Made by a program: the position numbers and the translations under genes
Shown: positions 10,689 to 64,000 of the stretch, one piece after another
Layout: each line of letters opens with the position of its first letter
How positions within the stretch are numbered: position 1 is the first letter of the stretch
The notes under the pieces: generated by a model
What the model was told of the DNA's origin: nothing
The model's input: only the letters and a program-made list of their open reading frames with translations
Databases searched by the model: none
Source: Squalus acanthias
Lineage: Eukaryota
Direction of reading: 5' to 3'
Length of the DNA: 64,000 nt
Assembly (NCBI GenBank): GCA_030390025.1
Contig: CM059432.1
Coordinates: forward strand, 100,442,001-100,506,000

Positions 10689-11427
10689 ATTATGATTAGT
10701 ACAAGCCCTCAAATGTGGACGCCATTAAAGATGCTCCTCTTTCCATTTTTTTCTGCTGGCACTAAAATATTTGGTGACCTACATCAGAACGTGTTGTGGT
10801 AGGATGGCAGTGGGGCGCCACAAGATATTCAAAGATGCAAATGAGATTATAGTTCTTTCAAATTCCGCTTCAGGCTACTCACTAACTGTACATCATGATT
10901 TGTGAGATTAGACCAATCTTGTGTAAACTGCAGTAAGTGACACCCGTTGAATTTCTTTCTACTCTCTTCTCCTTGTGATTAGATATTTTGCTCTCCAGGC
11001 CTGCCCTGTTGGGATTTGAATTTAAAAATTCAAACTAATCAAAATTGCAATGAATAGATCATCAAAATGGCCTCTCTGCAGGAGATGTGGCATAAGGCTA
11101 ATAATTTGCGCTTATCTTCTCTGAACATTTTATGAAGTTCAAAAATTTTTGAACTACAAGGAGAATTTTTCAAGTACATGTGTCGCTTTCTCCAACTTTA
11201 TCTGTCCTTTGGTGAACCAACTATTGATAAACTAACTATTCAGGGTTCCTGATCAGATTTTATTTCTTGACTTGACTGAGAAAACCATTTAATTAAGTTT
11301 CTGCACATGCCTTTAGGAAATTAAAGAAAGTAATAATTCCAGAGAGAATTTAATATTGACTAATTGGAGTGTGCCAAGTTCCTTACTAGAAACATTATAA
11401 AGTAATGGGCTCCTGACAAAACACCAG

Positions 11428-11480
11428 CGACCTGAAACGTTAACCCTCTCTCCATGGTGCTGCCTGCCCTGCTGAGTGTT
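11428..11480 (+). mobile_element. Short Penelope-like terminal-repeat fragment (ribozyme core lost)
   Basis: gacctgaaacgttaac...gctgcctgccctgctgagtgtttccagcattttctgtttt matches 59505-59585. Confidence 0.7.
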
Positions 11481-11802
11481 TCCAGCATTTTCTGTTTTAA
11501 TTATAAAGTAGAGCCACTTTGAGGATGATGTGCAATATGGATAAATTGGTAATATCCGAGTATTCTTTTATGGCCCAGGAACTTGCTCGCAGATAAATCT
11601 GGAGGGATGGGTGGGTGGCGGGGGGGTGACAATTCAGCATAGAATATCTAGCGCTTGAAGGTACTGGAAATCCTGGTTCTGGTTATTATTTTACCACAGA
11701 CTCAACCAAAATATTACACTGATACATGGAAATGAATGTAAAGATAAATGAAACAATGAGGCTGTGGGTGAGTGCAGGTAAAGAAATCTTGAATGCCGTT
11801 TA

Positions 11803-12063
<261 letters not shown>

Positions 12064-14443: not shown

Positions 14444-15363
14444 GGCCCCAATACGTATGGGGAGGCGGGGAGGCAGCGGGAGAGCCAGGGTGAAACCCGG
14501 AAATCCCGGGGACGCAAAGGTCTTGCTGAATTTAACGGCAGGACCTCATTATCATTTTTGTCTTCAGTTTCCTGTCCGGAAGTCGGACAAATTGTCAGTT
14601 GGGGATGGTCCCCGCAACCGGGAAAGATCAGGGCTTAGTGGAGGGCGGATCGGCCGATCGCAGGACAGGAGGCTAGAGATCGGGGTTGGAGGAGGGGGAA
14701 ATTGGCTGATCGCGGGGCTAGAGGGTGGGTCAGCCGATTGTGGGGTAGGAGGCGAGAGATCGTTGGAGGGGGGGTGGGGGGGCTGGAGGATAGGGGTCGC
14801 CGGTCACGATAGCAATTGGCAGAAGGGAGGCCAAAGGTTTGTTTGCGGGGACGGGGGGAGCACTCTTTCTCCTCCTGACCCACAAGGAGTGCTCTAAAAA
14901 GCACTTACCTTCTGCAGTCGGCTGCTCCCATCTCTTTTTTGCTGCCGGGTTTCCCGAACCCTGGGATACCCAGCCGGCAGCTGTTAAATTTAAATCAGGC
15001 TCCAAACTGCGCGGTGGGAGCCTGATTTAAATATTATAATGAAATGTCTCCAACGCGGGACACACACGGCATGATAGCTGCCGCTGTAAAAATGGTGGCA
15101 GGCACATATGCAGCAGGTTGGGGACACCTTGACCTGTAATAAATTCTTATTTATTACAATAAATAAACTCCGCCCTAGTTCTGACGAAGGGTCATCGACC
15201 TGAAATATTAACTCTGTTTCTCTCTCCACAGATGCTGCCCGACCTGCTGAGTTTCTCCAGCATTTTCTGTTTTTATTATTGGGGACACGTTTCCTGATTT
15301 TTAAGTTTTAACCTCCCCTCACCGACCGTCTCCCACCCATTGTGGGGGGTTAATATCGCCTCC
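14444..15363. mobile_element. GC-rich MITE (TSD ATG) containing a Penelope fragment
   Basis: ATG|GGCCCCAATA ... TATCGCCTCC|ATG, degenerate TIRs; internal cacttacctt motif. Confidence 0.6.
15177..15213 (+). ncRNA. Minimal type I hammerhead ribozyme motif (Penelope-derived fragment 15177-15278)
   Basis: AGTT-CTGACGA-A-GGGTC-ATC-GACCT-GAAA-TA-TT-AACT: stem I AGTT/AACT, stem II, conserved core. Confidence 0.6.
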
Positions 15364-17803: not shown

Positions 17804-17995
<192 letters not shown>

Positions 17996-42635: not shown

Positions 42636-42781
42636 CATGGTAACTGAGGATGAAGGAGCCACCTGTTGTGAAATCACTGTGGAATTTGATTAGGATCTGG
42701 TTTGATGTACTGTAGACAGACTCCAAAGCTGTATTGCCACTAAATTGTCCAATCTGAGGAGCAGTCTGCTCTGGCCCATCC
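42636..42781 (-). CDS. CSMD3: CSMD3 coding exon, C-terminal half of the CUB domain (146 bp, phase 2-1)
   Basis: cttatttAG|G GAT GGG... (W)DGPEQTAPQIGQFSGNTALESVYSTSNQILIKFHSDFTTGGSFILSYH G|GTTAG. Not in the ORF track; its first base completes the split TGG codon. Confidence 0.95.
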
Positions 42782-42936
42782 CTAAATAAGACAGTGTCAT
42801 TGTTAGGATTAATTCAGGCTGTTAACTGATCAGCAGGTTCCAGCACAACTGTGGTAAAATAATAGCACCATTTAACTGCAAGGAGTGCATTTCTGCTTCT
42901 GTACATTTGATAATTAATGCATTGTGTAAGGCTATG

Positions 42937-43540
42937 GGGTCGATTTTTTTATCCTACCTGCCTGGATGAGCAGTTAAATTGAGCAAGTTACTTACTTGCT
43001 CAGATACTGAACATTTCCGATATCGACCTGTAGCGTTTTTCAGGCAGAGGAGGCACCCGTCTATAATTTGCCTAATAAATTTATGAAAAGATCCCGAAGC
43101 AGTTTCAACCTGGGCCTGAGCAGGGAAGTTGCTGCAGCTTTCCCACTAGGCAAAAGCAGATCTTAAGATGGAAGAGTAATTCTAAAACTTTCCCTTGTGT
43201 GGCTAGGGGGACCAAGATTGTTTCTCTGGACCTCACAATGAAAGTTGCTGCCTCCCCTACCACAGACGCCCTCCCACCTTTGCTCCTGCGAGACCTCCTG
43301 AAACCCCCACCATGCCACTTACATGGAAGCTAGTGGGCAGCCAAGGGCCACCCGATCTTCACCTGCTAGCAGCTGCTCTGTGCCCTCTTCCTGCCCATTC
43401 TAGGTGGGAAGTGGGCCGGTGCATTTAAATGAGGCCCATCGATTAAAATTGCTATGGCCTCCTGTTGCCTTTGCCGGGTGGGAAATCAACTCACTGGAGC
43501 ATTTCCTGCTGGTAACCCATTCTGAGTTAAAATCCGTCCC
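42937..43540. mobile_element. Degenerate Harbinger-type MITE, TSD ATG
   Basis: ATG|GGGTCGATTTT ... AAAATCCGTCCC|ATG. Confidence 0.6.
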
Positions 43541-43880
43541 ATGTCTCACCAGTTAAGTCATGAACACTACTCTGTATTATCTTTCACATCATTCTTGAAA
43601 GTGTATTCACTTTTTACAGATCTGTTGCACACACAAATTTGTAAATTGCTTGCACTTACAACTCTCTAGTGCAACAATATCCACATGTATATCTATCTGT
43701 GCATTCTGACATGTGCAATTGATAGAATTCCCCAGCATGCAGCTGGATTTGAAGGGTAGTATAGTGAATCTCCTCATCCTGAGGATTTGACAGTTTCTTC
43801 TTCTCTTGTCCCAACAGAGTTTGAAAGAAACTGGAGAGTGAAATTCAAAGCTTTATTTCAGGAAAATGATGACATTTATT

Positions 43881-44297
43881 AACATAGAAACATAGAACAG
43901 GAGTAGGCCATTCGGCCCGTCGAGTCTGCTCCACCATTCAATACGATCATGGCTGATCATCCAAATCCAGTACCCTGTCCCTGCTTTAATCCCCACAGTA
44001 CACATATCCCACCCTACCCCCGTAACCCCACGTATTTAATTCCCCCTAACATATCCCATCCTATCCCCATAACCCCACATATTTAATCCCCCCCTAACAC
44101 TAAGGGTCAATTTATCATAGCCAAATCAACCTAACCCGCACATTTTTGGACTGTGGGAGGAAACCGGAGCACCCGGAGGAAACCCACGCAGACACGGGGA
44201 GAATGTGCAAACTCCACACAGACAGTCACCCGAGGTCAGATTTGAACCCGGGTTCCTGGCGCTGTGAGACACCAGTGCTAACCACTATGCCACCGTG
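43881..44297 (-). mobile_element. HE1-like V-SINE, near-identical to 22227-22657
   Basis: Reverse complement matches the first copy, including the internal duplicated ttaaata(c/t)gtggggtta unit; only a few substitutions. Confidence 0.92.
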
Positions 44298-44407
44298 AAA
44301 TGCTTTTTTTTGTGTCCAGCTACTCAGACTGGCACCACCTGTAAGAAGCAATGAGTGGTAACAGCAATGCCTGATATCATTGTTTTTTAACAAATTCAAT
44401 TTACAAT

Positions 44408-45151
44408 GGCCCAGAAATTGATCTCGCTCTGTTCCCGCGGGGGTAAGCCTTCCCCGCGATGTCTCACCTCGCTTATGCTTTTTCTGATCCAGCTCGCACG
44501 AACTTGATGTTCCAGACATCAGCTGTGCTGGGCTTGCGTATCCCAGCGGCGTAGTTAATTCGTGCGAGCTGTGGGATCACGTGACTCAGTTAGAGCCAAT
44601 GGCAGCACACCATCTTCCATTCATAAGTCTCACAGCATGGCTGTGAGACTTATGAATCTTACACCCCCCCAAAATAACAGCTAAACCTCAATTAAATTAA
44701 AAAAAAAAACCATCACATTAATAAAATAAGTATAGTTAATTAAATTAACCATTTTAAATAAAAAATTAAATTTTTGAAAAAATTTAAAATCTTTTAAAAA
44801 GTTATAAAAATAAACTTACCTGTCTTTAAAGTCTATAAAAAAGATATACCTGCAAAAAAAAATTCAAAAAAATACTTAATTCACTACTTACCTTCTTAAA
44901 AGCGGGTCTTACTCCTCCTTTTTACATTTCCAAAATCTTCCCTACTTACCTGCGCGTCCAAAGCATGAAGTGCACAGCGTGCGCGCAGCCTGTAGCGCGC
45001 ACGCGATGCACCCAGGCCCCGCCCCCTTTTCGGAAGAGCAATTGCCGGTTTTCAGCGCATGCGCAGGGCATGCAGAAAACCGGCAATTGGAGTGGGAATA
45101 CGCGAGAGTATGCAGTGCGTACTCTCGCGTCCCAGGATCAATTTTTGGCCC
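44408..45151. mobile_element. TIR MITE with AT-rich core, TSD AAT
   Basis: AAT|GGCCCAGAAATTGATC ... GATCAATTTTTGGCCC|AAT; related to 49344 and 56016. Confidence 0.88.
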
Positions 45152-45503
45152 AATAATTTACAAGCGAAAACATTGGGGCAATTTTAGTGGCTAAGATGGA
45201 GCCAGTAATTACTGATTATAAAAAGGAACACTATAGCCGCGATTTTATTGGAGGAGGCGGGTTGGAGTCGGGTCACCTGGTGGGTGGGTTCCAGTCCTGC
45301 TGCCGGTTTCAGCCACTCCCAAATAACAATTTTGCATTAAGTGGCCTCATTAATCCCGCCGTGTGCGCTACCCGGACCAATGAGTGGGAGCGGGTCTGAT
45401 GCTCGCCTCTGCTGACGTCATTCATTCAGTAGTTTTTAAGGGGCCCATGTAGCCTTAGCTTCTCATTTCGTTTGTGCTGCTCGGGAAATTGGCCCAGGTC
45501 ACC

Positions 45504-46690
45504 ATGACTGCTGCAAGAGCAAAGACTGCTCCTCGTTTTGCTGAAGACTCCCTCCAAGCTCTTGTGGAGGGAGTAAGAGGGCGCAGGGAGATTCTCTTCC
45601 CTCTCGATGGCCAGGGGAAGCCTCCTCAGCAGACAAAGGCAGCCTGGCTGCGAATTGCTGAGGAGGTCAGCGCTAGGTAAGTTTGCTCACGCACATGGGT
45701 CCAGTGCTGAAAACGCTTAAATGATCTGCTGCGCTCAGCAAAAGTGAGTATCACATCACACTTACCTTCAATCTACTTCCCTTCTCTTCTCATCAGCAGC
45801 ACTCTGCATTGTCAGTCTGTTCCTCCACATCCCACCTTACCCTTAATTCCCTTGCACCCTTACCTATCCATCTCTCTCTATGTACTGAATCACTTCACCA
45901 TCCTACTCTGCACCCCTCACACTCGCTCTCACTGTTAAGCAATGACAACAACTAACAACGCACAGGGAGGCACCTTCCTCTTGGCACCTCACTCCATCTT
46001 GGTCTCCCTCTAAGCTTCTATGTTATGGATTCTTCACACTCACTCCATCAATCTCGCTGAAACTCCACTTGTTTCCCTCCTTGCAGGAAAAGATAGCCCA
46101 CAATAAGAGGGAGAGAGGGAGGACAGGAGGAGGCCAACCATCCCTGACAACTTTGACAAGCTCTGAGGAGGCTGCTCACGACATCGCGGGAGGTGGCGAG
46201 GAGCTGGAAGTGGGGGACGGAGAGACGGGTGCAGTAGAGGAAGCTGGTGACAGAATAGATTTGTAACCCTCTCAGTTAGATTTCATGATTGACTGAAATG
46301 GCATCTGATGTGCATAGAGATTGACTTTTGATCATCTGCACAATAGGATGTGTCTGCTACCTAAATATCAGATGTCTAACTCATGCTTTTACTCTCCCAC
46401 AGGACCATCGAGAGCCCCATCCCCACTGTCCAGGAGGAAGAGCCAGACGACTCCTCAGCGGAACCTGGAGCCTCTGAGGGAGCAGCGTCACCTGAAATCA
46501 GCGCACCCAAGCACCAGCGCAGAAACGCACACCTCGGTGGGTCCTTTGCCACATAGAGTAGTGTTGTCACCTGGTGTATCACAGCTCACAAGTGAGCATC
46601 AGCAGATGGTGGAGACAGCGACAGCAGTGGAGAGTCCTCGTCAGAGGTCACAAGACACTTCTAGCTCTGCTCAGCTGTATGTAGACGCTG
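45504..46690 (+). pseudogene. Harbinger C Myb/SANT-like gene (3 exons, stops, 3' truncated)
   Basis: MTAARAKTAPRFAEDSLQALVEGVRGRREILFP...AAWLRIAEEVS; intron gtgagt 45744 to tgcag 46086; EKIAHNKRERGRTGGG. Confidence 0.82.
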
Positions 46691-46699
46691 TGGCTCGAG

Positions 46700-47811
46700 G
46701 AGGCTGTGCGCTGAGCCACTTGTTCCTCAGGCAGCGCTAAGCCACGCTGCTGTGCGATGTTGTGCAGTGCGATGTTGTGCAGTGCTCAGCAGACAACGAT
46801 GATTCTGGAGACCCTGGCTGGGGCGTAGTGGAGGGCTCCACCTGATCTGTTGAAGCATCTGAATCGCATTTTGAGCAAGCCGATGGTTTGCTCAATGATG
46901 CATCTGGTGGAAATGTGGCTCACATTGTACCACTCCTCAGCTTCGTTTGATGGCCTCCTCATTGGTGTCATTAGCTACTTTTTCAGGGGATAGCCCTTGT
47001 CTCCAAGTAGCCATCCGGAAAGTTGGGTTGGCGGATTGAAGAGCTGAGGCACAGTAGACTGCCGCAGGATGAACGAGTCATGGCAGCTGCCAGGGTACTT
47101 GGCGCAAACATGCATAATGTCCTTCCTGTGGTTACACACCAGCTGGACGTTAAGGAAGTGGAAGCCCTTGCGGTTGACAAATACAGCTGGGTTGTGATGG
47201 GGTGCCCTAATGGCCACATGTGTGCAGTCTACAACGCCCTGCACCCTTGGCAAGCCTGCCATATATGCAAAGCCAACCGTGCGCGCAGTTACACTTGCTT
47301 CATCCGTGGAGAAGTGGATGTAATTGTGCGCATTTGCAAAGAGGGCATCGGTAACCTGCGTGACGCAGGTGTGTGCGGCCGACTGGGAGATGCCGCTGAT
47401 GTCTGCTGCTGATTTCTGGAAGGAGCCCGAAGCAAAGAAGTTGAGTGCGGTGGTGACTTTGACAGCCACTGGTAAGGAGTGTCCACCCGCTCCTCTGGGC
47501 TCCAGGTGTTGGTGCAGCATTGTGCAGATGTCAGCGACTACGTCTTGCGAAAGTCTCAGCTTCCTTTGGCACTGCTGCTCACTCATGTTGAGGAACCTCA
47601 TCCTCGGCCTGTAAACCCTAAGTTGGGGATATCTCCTGTGGCACGGTGTAGCCCTGCGCTGATGCCCTCTGCCCTGTGCAGTATCAGGTGGCTGAGGAGA
47701 AGGTTGGCGCTCCTGTTGTTGCTGCTGCTGTTGTGCCTGGTTGTGCTGCTGCCGCGGCTGCTCTTCCTCCGAATTGGACGACCAGGATGAGAGGATATAA
47801 ACGGTTCCCAT
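46700..47811 (-). pseudogene. Harbinger C transposase (HARBI1-like DDE), two nonsense codons, no frameshift seen
   Basis: 278-aa ORF ([27 protein letters not shown]), TAG in place of W, continues in frame through IIEQTIGLLKMRFRC, TGA, then a 15-bp duplication (LHNIA twice). Confidence 0.92.
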
Positions 47812-49343
47812 TTCGCTGGTATATATCTCGGTTGAGGAATAGAGGTTGCAAGCGCTCAGTCAAAGTGGCCAGAGGATATTCCAAGGAGATCATACTGCAG
47901 ATGGATCTCAGCTTGAACACTCACAAGATCAGTAGAGTTGCAAAATATTTGCCAAAACTTCAAAGCACTAAGTTGTGGCATCTGAACTCAGCCATGTTGC
48001 AGGACTGCTTTTAAGCTGCTGTAGCAGCTGCCAACAATTGAGCTCCTCGCTAAACCCGGCACAATGCAGTTGGGGTGTTTGTCAGACGACGGGCAACACA
48101 CAGAAAATGCTCCAAAATCGGAATAGGCTGTTAAAATAAGATTATCAAGGCAGTTAACAAGCTGTTAACTGCCTTAAGAGCATCTCCCGCCATTTGGTGT
48201 GGGGTCTGATCAGGACTCGCAGACCTGACAATTGGTAAAGTAGTGTGGAGGTGGGATGGCGGCGGGTTTGCAACCCGCCGTCAATCATTTAGATATTTAC
48301 TCCCGACCCGCCTCCAAACCTGCCCTCTGAGCGCCGGCAAATTCACGGCCTATATTCCTAGGCTTACATTTATCAATCAAAGGAAAGCAAATGATAACCC
48401 TATCAACTAAGTATGGTTTCTCAACCTCATTGTTAGCTAGTTATTATTGATTACAAGTGCAACTACTAACTCCTTTTCATCATTTTCAATATTCCTTGCT
48501 CCTGATAAGTGTGCAGCTTTTGATTGCTTGCCCTTTCCCAGAAAACACTTGGCTTGAAATCATAATATGCAATTTTAGTACTGAATGTGTTCATTCATTT
48601 TGTATGAAATTCATTTATTTGAAAATTTAAATGCCTTTTTTAAAATAACAGAGCAATATCTTGCAAACAAGTTAATGCATTCAGTACTTGTATCACACAT
48701 TTCACCCTAGCTAGCATTTCATTGCTTCAAGCCTGGATCGATGCTTTCCTTAGATGACCCTCATTTCTTTTATCTCATGTCTTCTAGTACCTTATTTGAC
48801 AATTGAACACCACTTGTCGAACTCCATATATTGTAAGTACCCAAGCTTTGCCTTGGCACTCTTTCCTCTTTTAAGATCCAGTTTTCATAAACAGATCGAC
48901 TTAACCTTAATTCAGTTCAAGACTCTTTATTGAGTTGCAGCAATTATTAAACAAGTATCAGCAAGTATTCTTCTAAAGAGCCACCATTATCTATTTTCTT
49001 CAAAGTCACATTCAGGTCCATACAAATAGAGAAAATGAACTAGCACCTTTACCAGTCTTCATGTAAGCATTACTCATATTTTGTCAGCTCAGCCATCTTA
49101 CTCCTTATCAAACACCATTTATTTTCTTTACCTCTACACTATATTCATCATTTTCTATCTTGTTTGATCCAATTTAAGTAAATCAGCTCACTGGATCAAT
49201 GTCCTTTTCTCTTACTGAGATTGCTACACTGCTGTGATGTCTGCACTTGTCTATTAATATTTTTTTCATGGTTTAGCAGTTAGTTTGTAGTTGCTATTTC
49301 TTCCCTTTTTGTTAACATTTGCCAGAAACCCAACTTAAACAAT

Positions 49344-50077
49344 GGCCCATATTTTCCGATCCCTATGGGTGTGTATGCGCTGTGTACACACCCGTAGGGA
49401 CTTCGCAAGTGCCGGTTTCAGGCATTCGAAGCGCATGCATTGAAAACCGGCATTTCCGATCTGTCAAGAATCCTCTTGACAGATTGCACGCCTGCCCTGG
49501 GGAAGGGCCTCTGCGGGTGGAGAGTTCCGCTTTTTGCAGAACCTCCGCCCGCTGAAATCCCTTAAAAATCTTACGCCTGGTAAAAGTAGGTGTAAGGCCT
49601 GCTTTTATCAGCATAAGAGTTTAAAAAAAAGTTAAAAAAATACATTTTTTCACTCATTTATAATTTAAAAACACTTTTAAAAAAGGTAAGTTTATTTTTA
49701 GCCCCGTAAAAACTTTAGTTTTTTTTCAATATATATTTTAATGTAATTTTAACTCATTTTAAAAAAGTGATTTAAAAAAAATATTTAATGTTTTGATGTG
49801 TTTTTCAAGTGATCTCCATTCATACTTTTGACAGGTCTAAGCTGTCAAAAGTATGAAGGGAGATTCCCTTCTCCCATTGGTTACCCATGGCCCATGTGAT
49901 CCCAGGGACGCTTGCGAACCGCATGCGCCCCTGGGATACCTGGGCCCTGCGCATTTCGTCGTGGAGAGGCCCAGGAGCGGAAATGGCCGGACCTCTGGAG
50001 CCCTCAATAACGGCGTAGATTTTTTCCAGATCGGAGGCCTCCGCACGCAGGAAGCCTCTGATCGGAAAATACAGGCC
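49344..50077. mobile_element. TIR MITE with AT-rich core, TSD AAT
   Basis: AAT|GGCCCATATTTTCCGATC ... GATCGGAAAATACAGGCC|AAT. Confidence 0.9.
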
Positions 50078-50246
50078 AATACTTTTGAGGAGTTTCACGT
50101 CTCAAAGAATCGAATAGTTCCATGTAATGAATAAACACCAAGAACATTTCTCATTTATCTCTCGTCGTTTTAATCAGTACCCACAGACAATCATAGATTT
50201 CATTTCTCCTCCTTGTCTGGATGCTTCTTGCTCCTCAACAAGTTCT

Positions 50247-51507
50247 TAGAAACATAGAAAAATAGGAGCAGGAGTAGGCCATTCGGCCCGTCGAGCCTGC
50301 TCCGCCATTCAATATGATCAGGGCTGATCCTCTATCTCAATACCATATTCCCGCTCTCTCCCCATACCCCTTGATGCCTTTTGTGTCTAGAAATCTATCT
50401 ATCTCCTTCTTAAATATATTCAGTGACTTGGCCTCCACAGCCTTCTGTGGTAGAGAATTCCACAGGTTCACCACCCTCTGAGTGAAGAAATTTCTCCTCA
50501 CCTCAGTCTTAAATGTCCTACCCCGTATCCTGAGACTGTGACCCCTCGTTCTAGACCCCCCGCAGCAGGGGAAACATCCTCCCTGCATCCAGTCTGTCTA
50601 GCCCTGTCAGAATTTTATACATTTCTATGAAATCCCCTCTCATTTTTCTAAACTCCAGTGAATACAGGCCTAGTCGACCCAATCTCTCCTCATGCGACAG
50701 TCCTGCCATCCCAGGAATCAGTCTGGTGAATCTTTGCTGCACTCCTTCTATGGCAAGTATATCCTTTCTTAGGTAAGGAGACCAAAACTGCACACAGTAC
50801 TCCAGGTGTGGTCTCACCAAGGCCCTGTATAACTGGAGTAAGACATCCTTGCTCCTGTTCTCAAATCCTCTTGCAATGAAGGCAAACATACCATTTGCCT
50901 TCCTAACTGCTTGCTGCACCTGCATGTTTGCTTTCAGTGACTGGTGTACAAGGACCCAAGTCCCTTTGTACATCAACATTTCCCAATCTATCACCATTTA
51001 AATAATACTCTGCCTTTCTGTTTTTTCTACCGAAGTGGATAACATCACATTTATCCATGTTATACTGCATCTGCCATGTATTTGCCCACTCATTCAACTT
51101 GTCTAAATCACCCTGAAGCCTCTTTGCATCCTCCTCACAACTCACAATCCCACCTAGTTTCATGTCGTCAGCAAACTTGAAAATAATACATTTGGTTCCC
51201 TCATCCAAATCATTGATATATATTGTGAATATCTGGGGCCCGAGCACTGATCCCTGCGGTACCCCACTAGTCACCGCCTGCCACCCCGAAAAAGACCCAT
51301 TTATTCCTACTCTCTGTTTCCTGTCTGTTAACCAATTTTCAATCCATGCCAGTATATTACTCCAAATCTCTTGTGCTTTAATTTTGCACACTAACCTCTT
51401 ATGTGGGACTTTATCAAAGGCCTTCTGAAAATCCAAATACACCACATCCACTGGTTCTCCCTTATCTATTCTACCAGTTACATCCTCAAAAAACTCCAGT
51501 AGGTTTG
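50247..51507 (-). mobile_element. 5'-truncated CR1 LINE
   Basis: ORFs 50903-51451, 50551-50997 and 50337-50588; very similar to 3870-5103. Confidence 0.95.
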
Positions 51508-51720
51508 GTTTACTTCCACATCACATTCAATATTATTTTACTTGCATGACTAATCAAGATACTTGTTTAATAATTACTGCAACTGACAGATACATTTTTC
51601 AACAAGATTATATACATATTGATTTGGTCCTTTCTCCTGTTTTCTAGATCTTCATTCCTAACACATCAACAGAAATCCAGAAGCTTTTTTGATGCTCTTG
51701 CTTTCCTCCCAGTGACAGTG

Positions 51721-53326
51721 TCATAGAGTTATACAGCACAGAAAGAGGCCCTTCGGTCCATCGTGTCCGCGCCGGCCATCAAGCCCTGTCTATTCTAATC
51801 CCATTTTCCAGCACTTGGTCCGTAGCCTTGTATGCTATGGCGTTTCAAGTGCTCATCTAAATGCTTCTTGAATGTTGTGAGGGTTCCTGCCTCTACCACC
51901 CTTTCAGGCAGTGAGTTCCAGATTCCAACCACCCTCTGGGTGAAAAAGTTTTACCTCAAATCCCCTCTAAACCTCCTGCCCCTTACCTTGAAACTATGCC
52001 CCCTGGTTATTGACCCCTCCACTGAGGGGAAAAGTTCCTTTCTATCTACCCTATCTATGCCCCTCATAATTTTGTACACCTCAATCAGGTCCCCCCTCAG
52101 CCTTCTCTGCTCTAAGGAAAACAACCCCAGCCTGTCCAGTCTCTCTTCACAGCTGAAGTGCTCCAGCCCAGGTAACATCCTGGTGAATCTCCTCTGCACC
52201 CTCTCCAATGCAATCACATCCTTCCTATATTGTGGTGACCAGAACTGCACACAGTATTCCAGCTGTGGCCTAACTCGCGTTTTGTACAGCTCCATCATAA
52301 CCTCACTGCTCTTATATTCTATGCCTCGGCTAATGAGGCAAGTATCCCATATGCCTTTTTAACCACCTTATCTACCTGTCCTGCTGCCTTATGGGATCTA
52401 TGTACATGCACACCAAGGTCCCTCTGATCCTCTGTCCTTCCTAGGGTCCGACCATTCATTGTGTATTCCCTTGCCTTGTTAGTCCTCCCAAAATGCATCA
52501 CCTCACACTTTTCAGGGTTAAATTCATTTGCCACTGTTCTGCCCATCTGACCAACCTGTCTATATCGTCCTGTAGCCTGAGGCTTCCCTCCTCGCTATTT
52601 ACCACTCCGCCAATTTTCGTGTCATCTGCAAACTTACTGATCATGCCTCCTACATTCATATCTAAATCATTAATGTACACTACAAACAGCAAAGGACCCA
52701 GCACCGATCCCTGCGGTACGCCACTGGACACAGGCTTCCAGTCACAAAAACAACCTTCGACCATCACCCTCTGCCTTCTGCCACTAAGCCAATTTTGGAT
52801 CCAATGTGCCAAGTTGCCCTGGATCTCATGGGCTCTGACCTTCTTGACCAGTCTCCCATGAAGTCCATGTAGACGACATCAACTGCACTACCCTCATCCA
52901 CACACCTAGTCACCCCCTCGAAAAATTCAATCAAATTGGTTAGACATGATCTCCCCCTGATTAATCCTTGCCTCTCCAAGTGGAGACTAATTCTGTCCCT
53001 CAGATTTTTTTCCAATAATTTCCCTACCACTGATGTTAGGCTCACTGGCCTGTAATTCCCTGGGGTTTATCCCTACTACCCTTCTTAAATAATGGTACTA
53101 CGTTAGCTGTCCTCCAGTCCTCTGGCACCTCCCCTGTGGCCAGAGAGGTTCTGAAAATTTGTGTCAGAGCCCCTGCAATCTCCTCCCTTGCCTCACACAG
53201 CAGCCTGGGATACATCTCGTCTGGGCCTGGGGACTTATCCACTTTTAAGCCCGCTAAAACCGCTAGTACCTCCTCCTTCTCAATACTAATTTATTCAATT
53301 ATATCACAATCCCCCTGCCTGATTTC
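51721..53326 (-). mobile_element. 5'-truncated CR1 LINE, second subfamily
   Basis: [49 protein letters not shown]; different 3' UTR. Confidence 0.93.
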
Positions 53327-54974
53327 TATGCCATGCTTTTCAGGCTTCTGTACTTCCTATTGGCTCTTCGCTTTCATTTCATATTTAAATAACCAAATTT
53401 ACCTAAGTTATAATGTGCAATCAATCTTTCTTTCATTTTTTTCTTCAATGTTATCCTTAATTTGATCATCATTGCGTAATTACTATCCACATTCATTCCA
53501 GATAATGTCTTGCCATTAATAAAACTTAACTTCCATCAGAGATGAAGATCACAAATGGCTAATTTGGTTACCAGATTGTTATTGTCAGCTGATATCTAAG
53601 TGTGGGATCGTGGTGAGTGATGGTTGAACAGAGTTTCAGCTGTCATCAATTCTGAAAAAATTCACGAACCTCTCGCTTTCATTGTTAACAACAGACTAAA
53701 ATCTTCTTCCACTCCATCATCTTTGCCAGCTCTTACTTCTATATTTAATGGCTGATTTTGCTAATTTTATCCAAAACCATGTGTTTTTAGTCATAAAATT
53801 ATCCTGCTACACCATCATGTTATACCGTGCTTGGAACATACAATTAAATATGTGGGCTCATCTGGGGGTGGACCCTGGAAGAGGAACAATTTAAACTCTT
53901 ATATTGAGGGGCGGGGGTGGCACAAATGCCCCCTACCTGCGTGCAGATGACGTGACCTTCCTGTATATTCTGGCAGGGTCAACAGTGGAGGTCACCTGCG
54001 GGTACGATCCCAACGTAATTGTTGGGATTGCAGCACAAGAAATATCAAGACCATTGACATTTAACTTGTCTGTTCGGATCTTGATTACTTCAATAAGGTC
54101 AGTTTAACCCTCTCTTCTCCAGTGGAAACATTCTCCGTCTTTGTAGCATCTCCTCAAAAGTCAGGTGCCCAATAGGAGCTATTTGTCCAGTTGCCCTTCA
54201 TGTCTTTTTTCAGATTCTTGTTATCTCCACCTCCTCTCCAGCTACCTCTTGACGGCAATGCCACTTTCCCCCATCTCCTTCAATGTTCAGATATTACAGG
54301 TGCCACATTTGCTCAATTTATTGAGAAGATTGAAGCCACAATGATTTGACAACACTGAAATCCATGACAACACTGAAATCCAGCCTTATTTCTTTGTCTA
54401 GACAGAGTTTGTTATTGCCTCATTATAACAATGAGCCACTCCGTGCTGTGGACAATTCCATCCCCAGCAACATGATTACCAGCTAGCCTGATGAACTCAA
54501 CAAATTGTAATATCATTTTCCTATCATTATATGTATTCCATGTTGTAATTAACATATGGAGCAGTGACGTTGTGGGCTTCTCTGTTCTTCTACAATTGAA
54601 GTGTAAAAATACTTAAGAGCCTACAACCCACTTCCAGGTGTTCTTTTCAATGAAACCTTTGGCATGTCTTCGGTGAACTTCATCTGCCAAAGAACTGATA
54701 CCACCATCCACTGACATCTTATCACTATGCAAAGACTTTGAAGGTGACGAGTGAAGAGTCTTAACATGTCCCTGCTTATAGGAACACTGAAGTACTGAGT
54801 GGTGCAGAATCTTCCTCAGTGTAGTAACATAAGGGGAGACCAGCTCATGCCAGTAGAACAGATAGTGAAATTGTGCATGTCCAGCCCATGAACTTCTGTC
54901 TTTAAAAAAAAAATCAATCAATAGGTAAAAAATTACAGGCTGGAGGCATGCAACTTCCCAATAGAATTTCTAGA

Positions 54975-55610
54975 ATTACAACATAGAAACAAACCAGTCA
55001 GCCCAACCAATCCACGTTGTTTACCTTCCACAAGAGCAATAGTCCTCATCCTATATGCCTACTTTGTTCCCCAAAGCCTTTATTCCCCTTTCCTTCCACC
55101 TATCTAACCTATTCTTAAATGTTGACATGGTCTTTGTTTCAACCGTTATTCTGTTGGTGCATTCTGTAGCCTCACAACACTGTGTGAAACAACTTTCTCC
55201 TGAATAACAACAGAAAACGCTGGAAAAACTCAGCAGGCCAGGCAGCATCCGTGGAGAGAGAAAGAGAGTTAACGTTTCAGGTCGATGACCTTTCATCAGA
55301 ACTTTCTCCTGATCTTTGTCTTAATTCTCTTACATTTAATCTTGTATCTACATCCCTTCATTCTAGACCCTTCGATCACAAGAAACAGTCTGTTTCTATC
55401 TAAACTATCCCATCACTACATAATTTTAAACACCTCTATCAAATCACCCCATAATCTTTTCTGTTGGAACAAACTGTCACAGTTTTTCAAGTCTTTCTTC
55501 ATATTTGTATTTTCTCATGCCAGGCAGCATCTTAGTGAATCTGTGCTGTACCCTCTCTATTGCCTCAACTGGGCTTGGAAACCAAAACTGCACACAGCAC
55601 TCCAGCCGTG
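54975..55610 (-). mobile_element. Old CR1 3' fragment, interrupted at 55204-55299
   Basis: gctggagtgctgtgtgcagttttgg...gggtctagaa...tttaagaataggttagatagg. Confidence 0.7.
55267..55303 (-). ncRNA. Minimal type I hammerhead ribozyme motif in a 96-bp Penelope-derived insert (13-bp TSD)
   Basis: Minus strand AGTT-CTGATGA-A-AGGTC-ATC-GACCT-GAAA-CG-TT-AACT; TSD AACTTTCTCCTGA at 55191-55203 and 55300-55312. Confidence 0.72.
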
Positions 55611-55698
55611 ATATATGCTGCTGGACATTCCCAGCCTACACTGGAAGTGTTGAAGTAGAAAATCTCCTGACAGTTCAACATAATTTCTAAGATATATT

Positions 55699-55939
55699 GG
55701 GGGTGAAATTGGGTTTGCGACTGGGCGTGGCACTGACTCCCGCCATATTCGGTGAGAGTTTTGCGGTGGCGCTACGACCTTGTGCCCCGATCTCCTTTGC
55801 CGGAGATCGTGATTCCCCGAGCGCTTTAGTGCTCCACTTCCCTCTTGGGGAGCTAAAACTCAATTTCGCGGTCGCCAGCGCTAATAAGCGCCCAGGCAAT
55901 GTTAGCGCCCCAAAATGGCCAATAGCAAATTTTTCTCCC
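55699..55939. mobile_element. 241-bp Harbinger-type MITE, TSD ATT
   Basis: ATT|GGGGGTGAAATT ... AATTTTTCTCCC|ATT. Confidence 0.85.
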
Positions 55940-56015
55940 ATTCTCCTTAACTATTTAAAAATTAAACAGATGAAATGAAAGAATGATCTACTTAGACTGG
56001 GAAGACATAGATAAT

Positions 56016-56781
56016 GGGCCAAAAATTCGGCCCTTCCCGGGTGAGTACGCGCTCTGTACTCACCCGTAATGCTTCCCGAAGTGCCGGTTTCCTGCATGCA
56101 CTGCGCATGCGCGGGAAACCGGAACTTCCGGTGTGGTGAAGGGGGCGGTTCCTAGGTGAACTGCGTGCGTGGTAGAGGCTGCGCGCACGCAGCAAACTTA
56201 GATTTTTTTTCAGGTTTCTACACGAGGGTAAGTATTGAAGAAGCTACGCTAATAAAAAGGAGGCGCAAGGCCCATTTTCAACAAGGTAAGTGGTTAATTA
56301 AGTATAATTTTAAATTTTTTTCAACAGGTTTATCTTTTTTAGATACTTTAAAGAAAGGTAAGTTTATTTTTATCACTTTTAAAAAGTATTTTAATTTTTT
56401 CAAAAATAAAAATTTTTGTTTAAAGTGGTTAATTTATTTAACTATAGTTATTTTATAAACGTGATGGTTTTTAAAAAAAATTTATTTTAAGTTTAGCTGT
56501 TCTTTTGGGGCCGATTTCAATTCACAGATTTGACAGGTCTCCTGTCAAATCTATGAATGAAAGATGGTCTGCTGCCATTGGCTCTCCATGGCCCATGTGA
56601 TCCCAGGGGACGCATCGCACTAACTATGCCCCTGGGACATGCAAGCACTGCGCGCCGGCAGTTGGGAGAGGCCCAGGAGCTGAAGTTCCCGTGGGCCCAA
56701 AACACAACGGCAGGCGCGGTAGGTAAGAGCGCGCGCTGATCCTTACCCCCACGGCAAGCCGGAGAGGCGAATTTCTGGGCC
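56016..56781. mobile_element. TIR MITE with AT-rich core (44408/49344 group)
   Basis: GGGCCAAAAATTCG ... CGAATTTCTGGGCC; shares ccatggcccatgtgatcccaggg with 49344. Confidence 0.85.
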
Positions 56782-58293
56782 ATGTCAAACACTTGCACAT
56801 GCCTGGAGTGATTCCCCGAGCAGCAATGTAAATGCTACAGACCTTACACCATTTTCGAACCGGTATGTAGGCACAGACGAAGGAAGGCAAGGCAGTAACA
56901 CTAATTACAAGAGTGACATCTGATTTAATCTTATCACAGGCAGCATCAAACCTTACTCTAGTTTCAATCAGAATGTATTTACTTAGTTCCCCCAAAGGCT
57001 CAGCAAATTTATCCAGTGTGTGCTTCAGCCATACCGATCAGGAAGATCCAAAGTTTGATCCCTGGTTTGTACTGCTAGCTAATCTCAGCTGGCTGGGGCA
57101 GTAGGGCTGCTATAATAGCTCTCAGTCTCTGGAATGGGGAAGGGAACATTGGCCAGAGCTGTATGAATGTTGTATAGCAACAGCTACTGGAACTGTGCAT
57201 TTGTGGCTACCAGTACAGAATTGGATTCAATTGGCTATGATGCTCCATGTCTCTGAATAGCTTTTTGACACTTACTGTTATGGTCTAAACATGAATAAAG
57301 GCTACTTGAGAGAGGTGACAAAGGCTGCTGGGCACATATGGAATTGATCCTCAGCAAAAAGACAATGGGCCCAAAAATATGCAGGCGGCATGCACCCACC
57401 TGAAGCTGACCCCTTTGAAGTTTGTGAGGTCAGGAGGGAGCGGGGGGGCAGCACCATGAAAAGCAGGCATTTGGAGCAACTGGGGCATGCCCACCACAAG
57501 AGGACGTATAGTGCGGCGTAACTGGCAAGCCGGAAGGGGTGCCAGCCTCCTCCACCGAAACAGAATCTGTAAGGGGGCTGCACTTACTTAAAATAAAACC
57601 TTCACCTTCAGGGGTCAACGTCCCAAACCTAGCCTGGACACTTACACCAGCACCGCCCCCACCCCCTCCCACCCCATACTCCCTTCCCGGTGGGGTCCTC
57701 TTGGTTCGGAATTGGAGGTAGGTACAGCTCCTCCCCTTTGGCATACCAGCCTCCAACATCACACTGGACCCTCTCTAGGCTGGGGGCATGGGATCGCCCA
57801 ATGTCAGTAGTCCCCTCCTTTGGTCCTACCCCATGATGCAAGTGCCCAAGCAAGGAGCAGGTGGAGGTTCCTTCGCTTACTAGGCCCCGGGAACTCCTGG
57901 AAACAGAAGAAACTGATGTGCCCCCACACTGCCAAATATCTGCTTCTTCTGGTCACACTTCTTAACCTTGAGAACCTTTGGTGGTCAACGGCAATGGCTG
58001 TGGGTGGTTGTGTCCCAACACTTGCACCGGGAGGCAGGGCCCCACAGATTTTCAGGGCCATTCTTTTTGAACATGTTATCCATTTGTTTGAAATAGCAAA
58101 CATAGGATATCTTTTTGCTATCTTTACAATGCCACTACAAATAGCAACCAGAGGAAATCTTCCCCACTAGTTTAAAGCTACAGGATAACATTGTACAATA
58201 GCAAAATACTGTGGATGTTGGAAATCTGAAATAACAACAGAAAATGCTGTAAGCACTCAGCAGGCCAGGCAGCATCCGTGGAGAGAGAAACAG

Positions 58294-58330
58294 AGTTAAC
58301 GTTTCAGGTCTGTGACCCTTCATCAGAACT
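58294..58330 (-). ncRNA. Minimal type I hammerhead ribozyme motif (inverted Penelope repeat)
   Basis: Minus strand AGTT-CTGATGA-A-GGGTC-ACA-GACCT-GAAA-CG-TT-AACT. Confidence 0.72.
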
Positions 58331-59486
58331 GGAAAAAGTTAGAGATGTAACAGATTTTAAGCAGGTGCAGAGGCAAGGAAAGGGGGAGGGGAGGAAAGAA
58401 CAAAAGGGACGGTCTGTGATAGGGTGGAAGGTAGGAGTGGTTAAATGTTGCAAATGGGGATGGCAGAATCATCAACACCTGCCGCCTGAAAAATAGGGGC
58501 AGAGGTTATGGTCTGAAATTGTTGAACTCAATGTTGAGTCCAGAAGGCTGTGAAGTGCCTATTCGAAAGATGAGGTGCTGTTCCTCGAGCTTACGTTGAG
58601 CTTCATTTGAACAGTGTAAAAGACCGAGGACAGAGAGGTCAGAGTGGGAGTGGAGCGAGAATTAAAGTGACAGGCGACCGGAAGCTCTGCCGAGGACAGA
58701 GAGGTCAGATCTTTCCCTCACCTCCCCTTTCAGCATTCCGAAGGGACCGCTCCCTCCGCGATACCCTGGTCCACTCCTCAATCACCCCCAACAGCCCTTC
58801 CCCTTCGCCCGGCACCTTCCCGTGCAAGCACAGGAGATGCAACACCTGCCCTTTTACCTCTTCTCTTCCCACTGTCCAGGGCCCCAAACACCCCTTCCAG
58901 GTGAAACAGCGATTTACTTGTACTTCTTGCAATTTAGTATACTGTATTCGCTGCTCACGATGCGGTCTCCTCTACATTGGGGAGACCAAACGCAGATTGG
59001 GCGACCGCTTTGTGGAACACCTCCGTTCAGTCCGTAAGGGTGACCCCGAGCTTCCGGTCACCTGTCACTTTAATTCTCCGCTCCACTCCCACACTGACCT
59101 CTCTGTCCTTGGCCTCTTACACTGTTCCAATGAAGCTCGAGGAACAGCACCTCATCTTTCGATTAGGCACTTTGCAGCCTTCTGGACTCAACATCGAGTT
59201 CAACAATTTCAGACCATAACCTCTGCCCCTATCACTTTTTTTCTCTCTCTTACATGGCAGCTGCTGATCATCCTACCATTGCCATTTACACTTCATCTAG
59301 AGTCATCTTTTGTTTCTTAACTTGTCCCATTACCATCTCCTTTTGCCTTGCACCATCATCCCTTTTGTCTCTTAATCTCTCCTGCCTTCCATCCTATCAC
59401 AGACCTTCCCTTTTGTTCTTTCCTCCCCTCCCCCTCTCCCTGCCCCTACACTTGCTTAAAAACCTGTTACATGTCCAACTTTTTCT

Positions 59487-59523
59487 AGTTCTGACGAAGA
59501 GTCATCGACCTGAAACGTTAACT
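59487..59523 (+). ncRNA. Minimal type I hammerhead ribozyme motif (one stem II mismatch)
   Basis: AGTT-CTGACGA-A-GAGTC-ATC-GACCT-GAAA-CG-TT-AACT. Confidence 0.62.
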
Positions 59524-59873
59524 CTATTTCTCTCTCTACAGATGCTGCCTGATCTGCTGAGTATTTCCAGCATTTTCTGTTTTTATTTCAGATTTTCCAT
59601 TGGATGCTGCTAGAGTGCCATTACTCTGGTAGTTCTATCCCAATGTCTAATACAATAATTAATGGCTAAAATGAAATATATTTTAAAAATAGGAACGTAG
59701 ACGATACTGACTTTGTGACAAAGAGCCCCTTTGTGTAGAGGCTATAATTATTCTTGTTTACAGCTAACTAGCTCAGGAATACAGTAACAAAGCAGCAGTG
59801 TTATAACTTATCAGAGCTCAGTTTAATTTCATGACTGCTCCAATAAATCAGTAAGAGAATATTTATGGCCTAC

Positions 59874-60051
59874 CATACTGTAATGAAGTCATAGATAGGT
59901 TCCGTTTGTAAGACAGTGAAGTTGATGTAGATTCCATTGCCTGGAGGTACTTTGACAATCCACAGGCAGTCCTGAAAGTTAGGGTACTCATCAGGGTACC
60001 CAGGAGAGTAGATAGTGCCATTTAGTGCAGTTATATTACCTCCACAGAGAG
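59874..60051 (-). CDS. CSMD3: CSMD3 coding exon, N-terminal half of a CUB domain (178 bp, phase 1-2)
   Basis: tttgtctAG|CT CTC TGT... (A)LCGGNITALNGTIYSPGYPDEYPNFQDCLWIVKVPPGNGIYINFTVLQTEPIYDFITV TG|GTAGG; in phase with both neighbours. Confidence 0.95.
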
Positions 60052-60402
60052 CTAGACAAACAACAAAAATCAATCTGTTAGAAAATGCAATCTATTTATT
60101 CACACTCCTGCCTGTTTGTATTTCAGTCAATATACATTCAAACGGCAAAAATATTGACAGTTGCAAAAATATGTGGAAGATCGAATCTATTAAAATGTGT
60201 CATTTTTGCTTTTATTCTGTTTTCCCTTTGGCAATTTTCTGCAAGTACGTTTTGAAGACACTATCTACCATGACACAAAAACCTCAATGACTTGGGTGTT
60301 GTAATTACTTTGAGCACCATTTCACTGCACTGGTTAAGTCACCAGTTTAACATTCCTGTATGCACTATTTTTAATGTGGCTTTTTCCATTAGAGCAATGT
60401 AG

Positions 60403-60775
60403 ATTATAGGGTGATATGATAGAAGTGTTTAAAATTACAAATGGATGGGACAAGATAGAAGGAAGCAGACTGTTTCCAACATTTTAGGGGTCTAGAATGA
60501 GGGGCTATAGATATAAGATTTAATGTAAGAGATTTAGAACAGAGAGTAAGAGAAACTTCTTTTCACATAAAGTTGTGAGGTTGTGGAATTTACTTCCAGG
60601 ATTCGAAGTTGAAGCAGAAACTATGTCAATAGTCAAGATTAGTTTGGAAAAGTGGGTAAAGGGATATGGGAACAGGGCAGGTAAATGTGATTAGGACTAT
60701 TTACTTGCATGGAAGGTAAATGCCGATGTGGATTAGTTGGGCCAAGTGGCCTGTTTCTGTGTTGTAACATCTATG
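60403..60775 (+). mobile_element. Old CR1 3' fragment
   Basis: agggtgatatgatagaagtgtttaaaatt...gggtctagaatgagggg...gttgtgaggttgtggaatt. Confidence 0.7.
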
Positions 60776-60961
60776 AGTAATTAAAAATTGCCCAAAAATT
60801 CAATTTAGTTCAATTTTAGCTCTTTGATCCTGCCGGAATAATTTGTGTTAAAGCAGAAAAGTTCTTTCAATATCAAATACGCATTGCCTCATTTAAATTA
60901 ATCCACCAAAATTTTCTTAATTTTCCTTTTAAACTAGTCTCTGCAACCTTCTGGACACCTA

Positions 60962-63882: not shown

Positions 63883-64000
63883 CTTCACATCTAGGTATAG
63901 GGTGGTTCCAGTTACGGCTTATACCATGCAGACAAGTGAGTGCTGCCTCCCCAATTAAAGTGTAACCAAGGAGACACTCAAACGAGATGGTTCGTCCCAC
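63883..64000 (-). CDS. CSMD3: CSMD3 coding exon (5' part outside window); C-terminal half of a Sushi/CCP domain
   Basis: Minus strand reads VGRTISFECLLGYTLIGEAALTCLHGISRNWNHPIPRCE, then G|GTATGT donor (phase 1). Missed by the ORF track. Confidence 0.92.

What the first reader, a model, noticed from the sequence alone, without database searches (positions are those of the whole stretch)
55267..58330. Two sense-oriented minimal hammerhead ribozymes 3 kb apart in one CSMD3 intron
Seen: at 55267-55303 and 58294-58330 the minus (CSMD3 pre-mRNA) strand reads AGUU-CUGAUGA-A-RGGUC-nnn-GACCU-GAAA-CG-UU-AACU. This is an intact hammerhead core with a 4-bp stem I, a 5-bp stem II, one extra A after A9, and a loopless palindromic stem III (ACGU) before a GUU site. 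Established: Penelope-like elements carry minimal type I hammerheads that cleave efficiently as dimers through the palindromic stem III. Inference: two copies on one nascent transcript could pair in cis as a double hammerhead and cut this 17-kb intron co-transcriptionally. GUU is a weaker triplet and the spacing is long, so activity is uncertain.
Basis: partly seen in the sequence, partly recalled or inferred. Interest (0 to 1): 0.75.

Follow-up and report, generated by a model that had tools for sequence, protein, structure and literature searches.

The report
Penelope retroelement hammerheads in shark CSMD3
The two small hammerhead-ribozyme motifs in this shark-type CSMD3 intron are real, but they are tail pieces of a very abundant Penelope-like jumping gene, and one of them is predicted to be locked up by a third, reversed copy next to it, so they likely do not cut the CSMD3 transcript.

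Summary
Observation confirmed; interpretation not supported. Both 37-nt motifs lie on the minus strand of a 17,092-nt CSMD3 intron and are not chance (0 in 300 shuffles). They are pseudo-LTR hammerheads of a Neptune-type Penelope-like element: five copies lie in the window, and the summed contig depth is about 10^4 to 10^5 times single-copy depth in four runs. The 55.3-kb copy is a 101-nt solo insert with a 12-13-nt target duplication. The 58.3-kb copy is the inverted arm of a separate truncated element that has a GIY-YIG endonuclease remnant. Its antisense arm is transcribed first and pairs with the 58.3-kb arm over 458 aligned nt at 90% identity, with predicted pairing of 0.96 or more at 35 of 37 motif bases. 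Published minimal Penelope hammerheads cleave weakly even as dimers. Cis double-hammerhead cleavage is therefore unlikely but was not tested. The scan already noted this kind of motif in several other introns of this genome. Ordinary.

The parts
59874..60051 (-). CSMD3 exon (first half of a CUB domain), upstream of the intron
42782..59873 (-). CSMD3 intron, 17,092 nt, GT-AG, phase 2
42636..42781 (-). CSMD3 exon (second half of the CUB domain), downstream of the intron
58710..59595 (+). 5'-truncated Neptune-type Penelope-like element: end of the ORF plus pseudo-LTR; antisense to CSMD3 and transcribed first on the pre-mRNA
58706..59213 (+). Remnant of the linker zinc finger (CKHRRCNTC, C-X4-C-X2-C) and GIY-YIG endonuclease with two Cys between the motifs; frameshifted near 59133-59137, where it is 11 nt shorter than the other arm
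   Evidence: PF01541 E 8e-4, below the curated cut-off; 68% to P0002
59487..59523 (+). Third hammerhead copy (core intact, one mismatch in stem II); its complement on the pre-mRNA pairs with the 58.3-kb motif
58688..58709 (.). 22-nt junction filler between the arms, repeating 58624-58643
   Evidence: (D13)
58196..58687 (-). Inverted arm: ORF 3' end, pseudo-LTR and tail; sense to CSMD3
58294..58330 (-). Minimal type I hammerhead motif 1 (G.U at 10.1-11.1, GUU triplet; predicted cut between 58298 and 58297)
58196..58229 (-). 34-nt tail extension, present in full only at this end of the insertion
   Evidence: sequence compared with the loose-end consensus and the organism I flank boundary; tails of 30-40 bp described in PMC8557442
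55203..55303 (-). 101-nt solo pseudo-LTR fragment, an independent insertion into an older LINE 3' relic
55267..55303 (-). Minimal type I hammerhead motif 2 (A-U at 10.1-11.1, GUU triplet; predicted cut between 55271 and 55270)
55191..55202 (-). Downstream copy of the 12-13-nt target-site duplication; the upstream copy is 55300-55311 and overlaps the first 4 nt of the insert
   Evidence: empty paralogous site near 60548-60581
15177..15277 (+). Fourth copy: 101-nt solo with a full descriptor match, antisense to CSMD3
11413..11502 (+). Fifth copy: decayed solo with a changed core (G8 to A), antisense to CSMD3

Best explanation
The two motifs are pseudo-LTR hammerheads of a very high-copy Penelope-like retroelement (likely Neptune clade), left by two likely independent insertions in one CSMD3 intron, and they likely do not cut the pre-mRNA. 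Shown: the motifs, the host intron, the endonuclease remnant, the inverted arrangement, the target duplication of the solo copy and the extreme repetitiveness. Inferred: as polymerase moves down the minus strand, it first makes the antisense arm (59595 to 59048) and then the sense arm. These would zip into a long duplex that buries motif 1 about 0.75-3 minutes (at an assumed 4-1 kb/min) before motif 2 exists. Motif 2 would be left as a lone monomer, predicted to fold into an inactive extended hairpin (UGAUG paired with CGUUA). Any function of the motif belongs to the transposition cycle of the parent element and not to CSMD3.
For: Motif context: plus-strand ORF remnant with a C-X4-C-X2-C linker and GIY-YIG. 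81 relatives among 321 candidates; the closest by identity (62-75%) are named from sharks, skates and rays; longer relatives carry RT (PF00078), and this region is C-terminal in P0033 and P0054. Inverted 5'-truncated copy plus a one-sided tail is the described PLE layout (PMC8557442; PMC3846280). Arms: 413 of 458 aligned nt identical. Duplex energies: -57 kcal/mol for the 37-nt motif alone and -742 for the arms; pairing probability 0.96 or more at 35 of 37 positions in the nascent 1.4-kb RNA. Double hammerhead -9.1 against -16.0 kcal/mol for two monomers. Stem I probability in local context 0.00 (motif 1) and 0.03-0.05 (motif 2). Solo copy with a 12-13-nt duplication. No RT or endonuclease between the motifs. 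Depth in the motif bins is 1.5e4 to 4e5 times the unique bins in 4 of 4 runs (summed contig depth, not a copy number). In organism I both flanks run on for 854 and 563 letters into other sequence, so the inverted element looks absent there and lineage-limited (table 8). Low activity of PLE minimal hammerheads.
Against: Both sense copies keep all 11 core positions. Among the four ungapped copies 0 of 11 core columns vary, against 12 of 64 downstream columns (p = 0.19; the fifth, gapped copy was left out and has a core change). Nearest-neighbour folding ignores tertiary contacts, Mg2+ and proteins and penalises three-way junctions; no positive control was run, so the dimer energies are only indicative. 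Helicases, hnRNP proteins or ADAR could loosen the duplex. The Anolis PLE hammerhead cleaves when its protein is added. No cleavage or RNA-end data exist for this locus.
Confidence: 0.88

Rival explanations
1. One reading: motifs 1 and 2 pair in cis through the palindromic stem III as a double hammerhead and cut the intron during transcription.
For: Both cores are intact and sense-oriented in one intron, and a nested double-hammerhead fold can be drawn. Dimeric and trimeric minimal hammerheads show some low activity. Axolotl retrozyme dimers cleave much better than monomers (PMC7229834), but those are canonical motifs a few hundred nt apart.
Against: Motif 1 is predicted to be buried in the inverted-repeat duplex before motif 2 is made. 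The double-hammerhead fold is predicted less stable than the misfolds. The pair at 10.1-11.1 is not G-C. GUC and GUA are the fastest triplets (PMC3138052). Such pairs are expected by chance at this density.
Confidence: 0.04
2. Motif 2, the unprotected solo copy, cleaves slowly only when helped by the element's own protein or a host chaperone, or by pairing in trans with another copy of this abundant family. This would give low-level leakage with no regulatory role.
For: The Anolis PLE hammerhead is protein-assisted. The family is extremely abundant. Motif 2 has Watson-Crick pairs throughout stem II.
Against: Motif 2 can also pair with the antisense arm (-58.5 kcal/mol) and forms a local inactive hairpin. 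In Anolis no RNA-seq reads ended at the cut site. In the PAc assay the protein is thought to act by binding the element's RT-initiation region, and whether a 101-nt solo offers such a site is unknown.
Confidence: 0.06
3. The two sense copies are the two direct pseudo-LTRs of one composite element (inverted arm + pLTR + 2.9-kb captured DNA + pLTR), as described for Adineta vaga Penelope transductions.
For: [quoted passage not shown] The two sense copies are the most alike pair (93 of 101 nt) and share several variants.
Against: Motif 2's copy has its own target duplication inside a collinear LINE relic. The non-repetitive part of the spacer is at single-copy depth and is present in organism I, which appears to lack the inverted element.
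Confidence: 0.02

Closest known systems
Minimal hammerheads (min-HHR) in pseudo-LTRs of metazoan Penelope-like elements, including fish Neptune, Poseidon and Xena (Cervera & de la Pena 2014, PMC4209133; parts 1-2 of 4 read, supplements not read)
   Same: Type I topology, no loop 3, palindromic 15.2-16.2, one extra nucleotide between 9 and 10.1, short helix I, position in the pseudo-LTR, mostly solo truncated copies, and opposite-strand pairs close together.
   Different: The 10.1-11.1 pair is G.U or A-U instead of the conserved G-C; the triplet is GUU; helix II is 5 bp. The parts read do not mention a shark family.
Neptune-clade EN+ PLEs (Craig et al. 2021, PMC8557442; passages read)
   Same: C-terminal GIY-YIG with cysteines between the motifs, CX2-5CxxC linker, 5' truncation, adjacent inverted truncated copy, and a 30-40-bp tail at one end.
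   Different: No RT survives at this locus, so the clade was assigned from the linker and domain order only; no tree was built.
PAc Poseidon element of Anolis carolinensis (PMC11167929; passages and part 2 of the main text read)
   Same: A pseudo-LTR hammerhead with insertion ends about 100-130 nt downstream of it, and two end classes that differ by a tail.
   Different: A different clade (Poseidon lacks the linker zinc finger). PAc is active and biochemically tested; these copies are dead fragments.
Domesticated intronic ribozymes: amniote RECK, CTCL and DTNB hammerheads (PMC6155905, passages) and the CPEB3 HDV-like ribozyme (PMC10919898, abstract)
   Same: A self-cleaving motif in the sense strand of an intron.
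   Different: Those are conserved across distant species, and the amniote motifs resemble canonical type I hammerheads. These are minimal, lack loop-loop contacts, belong to a huge repeat family, and one appears absent in a relative 6-11% diverged in the flanks.

Membership tests
PLE minimal hammerhead (min-HHR) | Core CUGANGA...GAAA...UH with helices I and II and no loop 3 | tested here: met
PLE minimal hammerhead (min-HHR) | [quoted passage not shown] | tested here: met
   extra A and CG in both copies; features
PLE minimal hammerhead (min-HHR) | Highly conserved G10.1-C11.1 pair (typical, not part of the descriptor) | tested here: not met
   G.U in motif 1 and A-U in motif 2; U11.1 in all five window copies
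PLE minimal hammerhead (min-HHR) | Located in the pseudo-LTR of a Penelope-like element | tested here: met
PLE minimal hammerhead (min-HHR) | Self-cleavage as a dimer | not testable with these tools
   folding predictions only
PLE minimal hammerhead (min-HHR) | Core better conserved than flanks across copies | tested here: inconclusive
   0 of 11 against 12 of 64 variable columns in 4 of 5 copies, p = 0.19; the fifth copy has a core change
Rfam hammerhead families | Match to a curated covariance model | tested here: not met
   no hammerhead match at E up to 5 in 45000-64000
Neptune-clade EN+ PLE | C-terminal GIY-YIG endonuclease with two Cys between GIY and YIG | tested here: met
   VYCIRCSRCGLLYIG; PF01541 E 8e-4, below the curated cut-off; C-terminal in RT-bearing relatives
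Neptune-clade EN+ PLE | CX2-5CxxC zinc-finger linker before the endonuclease (absent in Penelope/Poseidon) | tested here: met
   CKHRRCNTC; definition
Neptune-clade EN+ PLE | Placement by RT phylogeny | not tested
   RT is absent from this truncated copy
Neptune-clade EN+ PLE | Inverted truncated copy and one-sided 30-40-bp tail | tested here: met
Non-LTR retrozyme | Short tandem repeats of 150-450 bp with canonical type I hammerheads | tested here: not met
   copies are dispersed or inverted, none in tandem; definition
Domesticated intronic ribozyme (RECK or CPEB3 type) | Kept at the orthologous position in distant species | tested here: inconclusive
   The inverted element with motif 1 appears absent in organism I (table 8, which lists only some records). 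Motif 2 lies inside a repeat and could not be traced.

The most novel reading that the evidence does not exclude
The many sense-oriented intronic copies of this shark Penelope hammerhead are latent cut sites that become active when the element's own protein is expressed, as shown in vitro for the Anolis element. The 55.3-kb copy would then cut CSMD3 pre-mRNA alone or with a partner, while the inverted arm acts as a built-in antisense lock on the 58.3-kb copy.
Probability: 0.05. Interest if true: 0.65.

Novelty: new member of a known kind. Interest (0 to 1): 0.1.

Why it matters
As found, it matters little: it is one more example of an RNA class described in 2014, in a genome that is full of it. 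If cis cleavage at this distance were real, a very large number of transposon relics in cartilaginous-fish introns could act as co-transcriptional cut sites, and the open question of what PLE minimal hammerheads do in vivo would have a defined test locus. The locus does offer a natural control pair: one motif predicted to be locked by an antisense arm and one free.

Tried and rejected
No whole genome is held for this window, so no genome-wide count, orientation bias or copy alignment was possible; the density figures come from this 64-kb window only. The Rfam scan found no hammerhead. An exact 27-base family pattern had 0 matches in metagenome contigs. The look-up of sequencing runs listed no RNA holder; this says nothing on expression. 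Read laying on four runs of contigs cannot show RNA ends, and its variant table was cut (598 rows not shown), so family-wide core conservation was not obtained. Contigs of organism A (second sample) and organism E run 21-33 letters from both flanks into the inverted element. That suggests the element is present there, but mostly falls short of the tool's 31-letter bridging rule. Organism B had no listed record at these junctions. Loose ends at 55302/55303 are a mixture (agreement 0.34-0.36) and were not taken as proof of a fixed 5' boundary. Orientation of the five copies (2 sense, 3 antisense) shows no bias (p = 1.0). The Lunse et al. 2016 paper was not held. A search for shark + Penelope + hammerhead ribozyme gave 1 paper, where 'shark' refers to the ribozyme's name; most subscription papers are outside the library, so this does not show that the family is unpublished. 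The exon-tethering idea (a cut intron may still be spliced) was found only as a reference title and is otherwise recalled. Look-ups of earlier findings near this place and by sequence gave nothing. Rejected: one composite element spanning both motifs; a retrozyme array; a chance match.

Full report
1. Observation. Each motif has a 4-bp stem I, CUGAUGA, an extra A, a 5-bp stem II with a 3-nt loop, GAAA, CG, UU and stem I'. A generic minimal-hammerhead descriptor found 3 sites in the window (these two and 15181 on +) and none in 300 shuffles. Rfam found no hammerhead in 45000-64000 at E up to 5. The host gene is CSMD3 on the minus strand. The exon 60051-59874 is 91-95% identical to several proteins named CSMD3, with one 95% hit labelled CSMD1. 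It joins exon 42781-42636 in frame across a 17,092-nt GT-AG intron.

2. What the motifs belong to. The unit occurs five times in the window: 55203-55303 (-), 58196-58687 (-), 58710-59595 (+), 15177-15277 (+) and 11413-11502 (+). The plus-strand copy ends an ORF remnant with a C-X4-C-X2-C linker and a GIY-YIG endonuclease that has two cysteines between the motifs. The Pfam score is below the curated cut-off. The remnant has 81 relatives among 321 candidates. The closest by identity (62-75%) are named from sharks, skates and rays, and longer ones carry reverse transcriptase, with this region at their C-terminus. By the definitions in PMC8557442 (passages) this is a Neptune-type Penelope-like element. 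No RT survives here and no tree was built. The remnant is frameshifted near 59135.

3. Anatomy. Motif 1 lies in the inverted arm of this truncated element. The arms align at 413 of 458 positions, are joined by a 22-nt filler, and the minus arm carries a 34-nt tail. This inverted, one-tailed layout is the described one. Motif 2 lies in a 101-nt solo fragment with a 12-13-nt target duplication, inside an older LINE relic whose paralogue near 60.5 kb lacks the insert (the CR1-like label is recalled, not tested). The 2.9 kb between the motifs holds no Penelope ORF. The two motifs are therefore not the two ends of one element, and the 3-kb spacing, which resembles the length of a full element, is a coincidence.

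4. Abundance and age. Contigs of four runs were laid on 55000-59800 (4 of the 24 runs listed). The two motif bins have 1.5e4 to 4e5 times the depth of the unique bins. This is summed contig depth, not a copy number, but it marks a huge repeat family. At the density of this window, two or more sense copies in a 17-kb intron are expected 6-15% of the time, and a same-strand neighbour within 3 kb 13-21% of the time. The inverted element thus appears absent there. Contigs of a second organism A sample and of organism E enter the element by 21-33 letters, mostly short of the tool's bridging rule. Table 8 lists only a few of more than 564,000 records. Motif 2 could not be traced in relatives.

5. 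Could the two motifs cut in cis? On the pre-mRNA its complement is made first, about 1.2 kb before motif 1. The predicted duplex is -57 kcal/mol for the 37-nt motif and -742 for the arms, with pairing probability 0.96 or more at 35 of 37 motif positions. Motif 2 appears 3 kb later, 45-182 s at an assumed 4-1 kb/min (the rate is recalled). Even without the arm, each monomer is predicted to misfold, with UGAUG paired to CGUUA. Stem I has probability 0.05 or less in local context. The drawn double hammerhead scores -9.1 kcal/mol against -16.0 for two monomers and -19.3 for a misfolded dimer. These are nearest-neighbour energies without tertiary contacts, Mg2+ or proteins, with no positive control, so only the long duplex is a robust prediction. 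Sequence features also point to weak activity: the 10.1-11.1 pair is G.U or A-U where G-C is highly conserved, and GUC and GUA are the fastest triplets (PMC3138052, passages).

6. Literature on activity. Cervera & de la Pena 2014 (PMC4209133, parts 1-2 of 4; supplements not read, and they hold the cleavage gels) found no monomer cleavage and low cleavage of dimers and trimers for a Schistosoma motif. They report such motifs in fish Neptune elements and thousands of copies in coelacanth and Xenopus. [quoted passage not shown] The Anolis PAc hammerhead cuts only with protein, is dispensable for insertion in vitro, and no RNA-seq reads ended at its cut site (PMC11167929, passages and main text part 2). 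Lunse et al. 2016 was seen only as a title, so its rates may be higher than those cited. Axolotl retrozyme dimers cleave well but are canonical motifs in short tandem repeats (PMC7229834, passages). In Xenopus 42-44% of retrozyme copies overlap introns, somewhat depleted relative to intergenic DNA (bioRxiv 10.64898/2026.07.22.740005, abstract and Results part 1). That depletion leaves room for weak selection against intronic copies.

7. Results against my reading. Both sense cores are intact. Core columns vary less than downstream columns (0 of 11 against 12 of 64 in four copies, p = 0.19); the fifth copy, left out because it is gapped, has a core change. The two sense copies are the most alike pair (93 of 101) and share variants that the plus arm lacks, so the arms may come from different subfamilies or separate events; I could not settle this. 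No experiment or RNA-end data exist for the locus.

8. Verdict. Real motifs of a known class, at an ordinary locus. Most likely (0.88) they are inert relics, one of them predicted to be locked by its own inverted arm. Cis double-hammerhead cleavage gets 0.04. Earlier notes of this scan report the same kind of motif in the PCCA, NALCN, TBC1D4, UBAC2 and collagen introns of this genome. They are unchecked, were seen after my reading was formed, and are not counted as support. Interest 0.1.

Noticed in passing
window 55203-55303, 15177-15277, 11413-11502: The three solo copies all start within a few bases of the 5' strand of stem I and end at the same TTATT-type end; 0 of 5 copies start at the predicted cleavage site. 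In the longer copies the start lies in an initiator-like context (YYANWYY, recalled). This would fit a transcript start at stem I, reverse transcription primed about 100 nt downstream as in PAc, and uncleaved templates. The sample is small, and the loose ends are mixed.
   Followed up: partly
window 59520-59545 (+) and 15210-15235 (+), against 58272-58297 (-) and 55245-55270 (-): Just after the hammerhead the unit carries a branch-point-like TTAAC, a pyrimidine tract and CAG, resembling a 3' splice site. The AG is intact in both antisense copies and changed to GG in both sense copies. This could reflect selection against cryptic acceptors or simply a subfamily variant (2 against 2).
   Followed up: partly
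window 58196-59595: The ~460-nt, 90% inverted repeat ends about 280 nt from the 5' splice site at 59873. It is a likely long double-stranded RNA and possible ADAR substrate; no reads were available to look for editing.
   Followed up: no
window 58195/59593 junctions: In organism I at least 854 letters of other sequence follow the left flank and 563 precede the right flank, so the insertion in this lineage seems to have replaced host DNA. No target duplication is seen.
   Followed up: partly
window 46975-47859 (-) and 27402-27854 (-): ORFs that look like Harbinger/PIF-type transposase remnants (label recalled).
   Followed up: no
window 3852-5101, 9021-10276, 50250-51507, 51889-52878: Several LINE reverse-transcriptase remnants, 82-90% alike among the first three (CR1-like label recalled).
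   Followed up: no
window 23110-23498 + 27813-28292, 32822-33718, 60956-61843: A ~900-nt repeat in three copies; the first appears split by an insertion of about 4.3 kb.
   Followed up: no
window 20440-20586 and 20995-21141: A 147-nt direct repeat at 97% identity, 555 nt apart; nature not examined.
   Followed up: no
window 17995-42636 (-): Further CSMD3 exons lie near 17804-17995, 11803-12063 and 63878-64000. A short exon for the first half of a Sushi domain is expected between 42.6 kb and 18 kb (recalled gene structure) and was not located.
   Followed up: no
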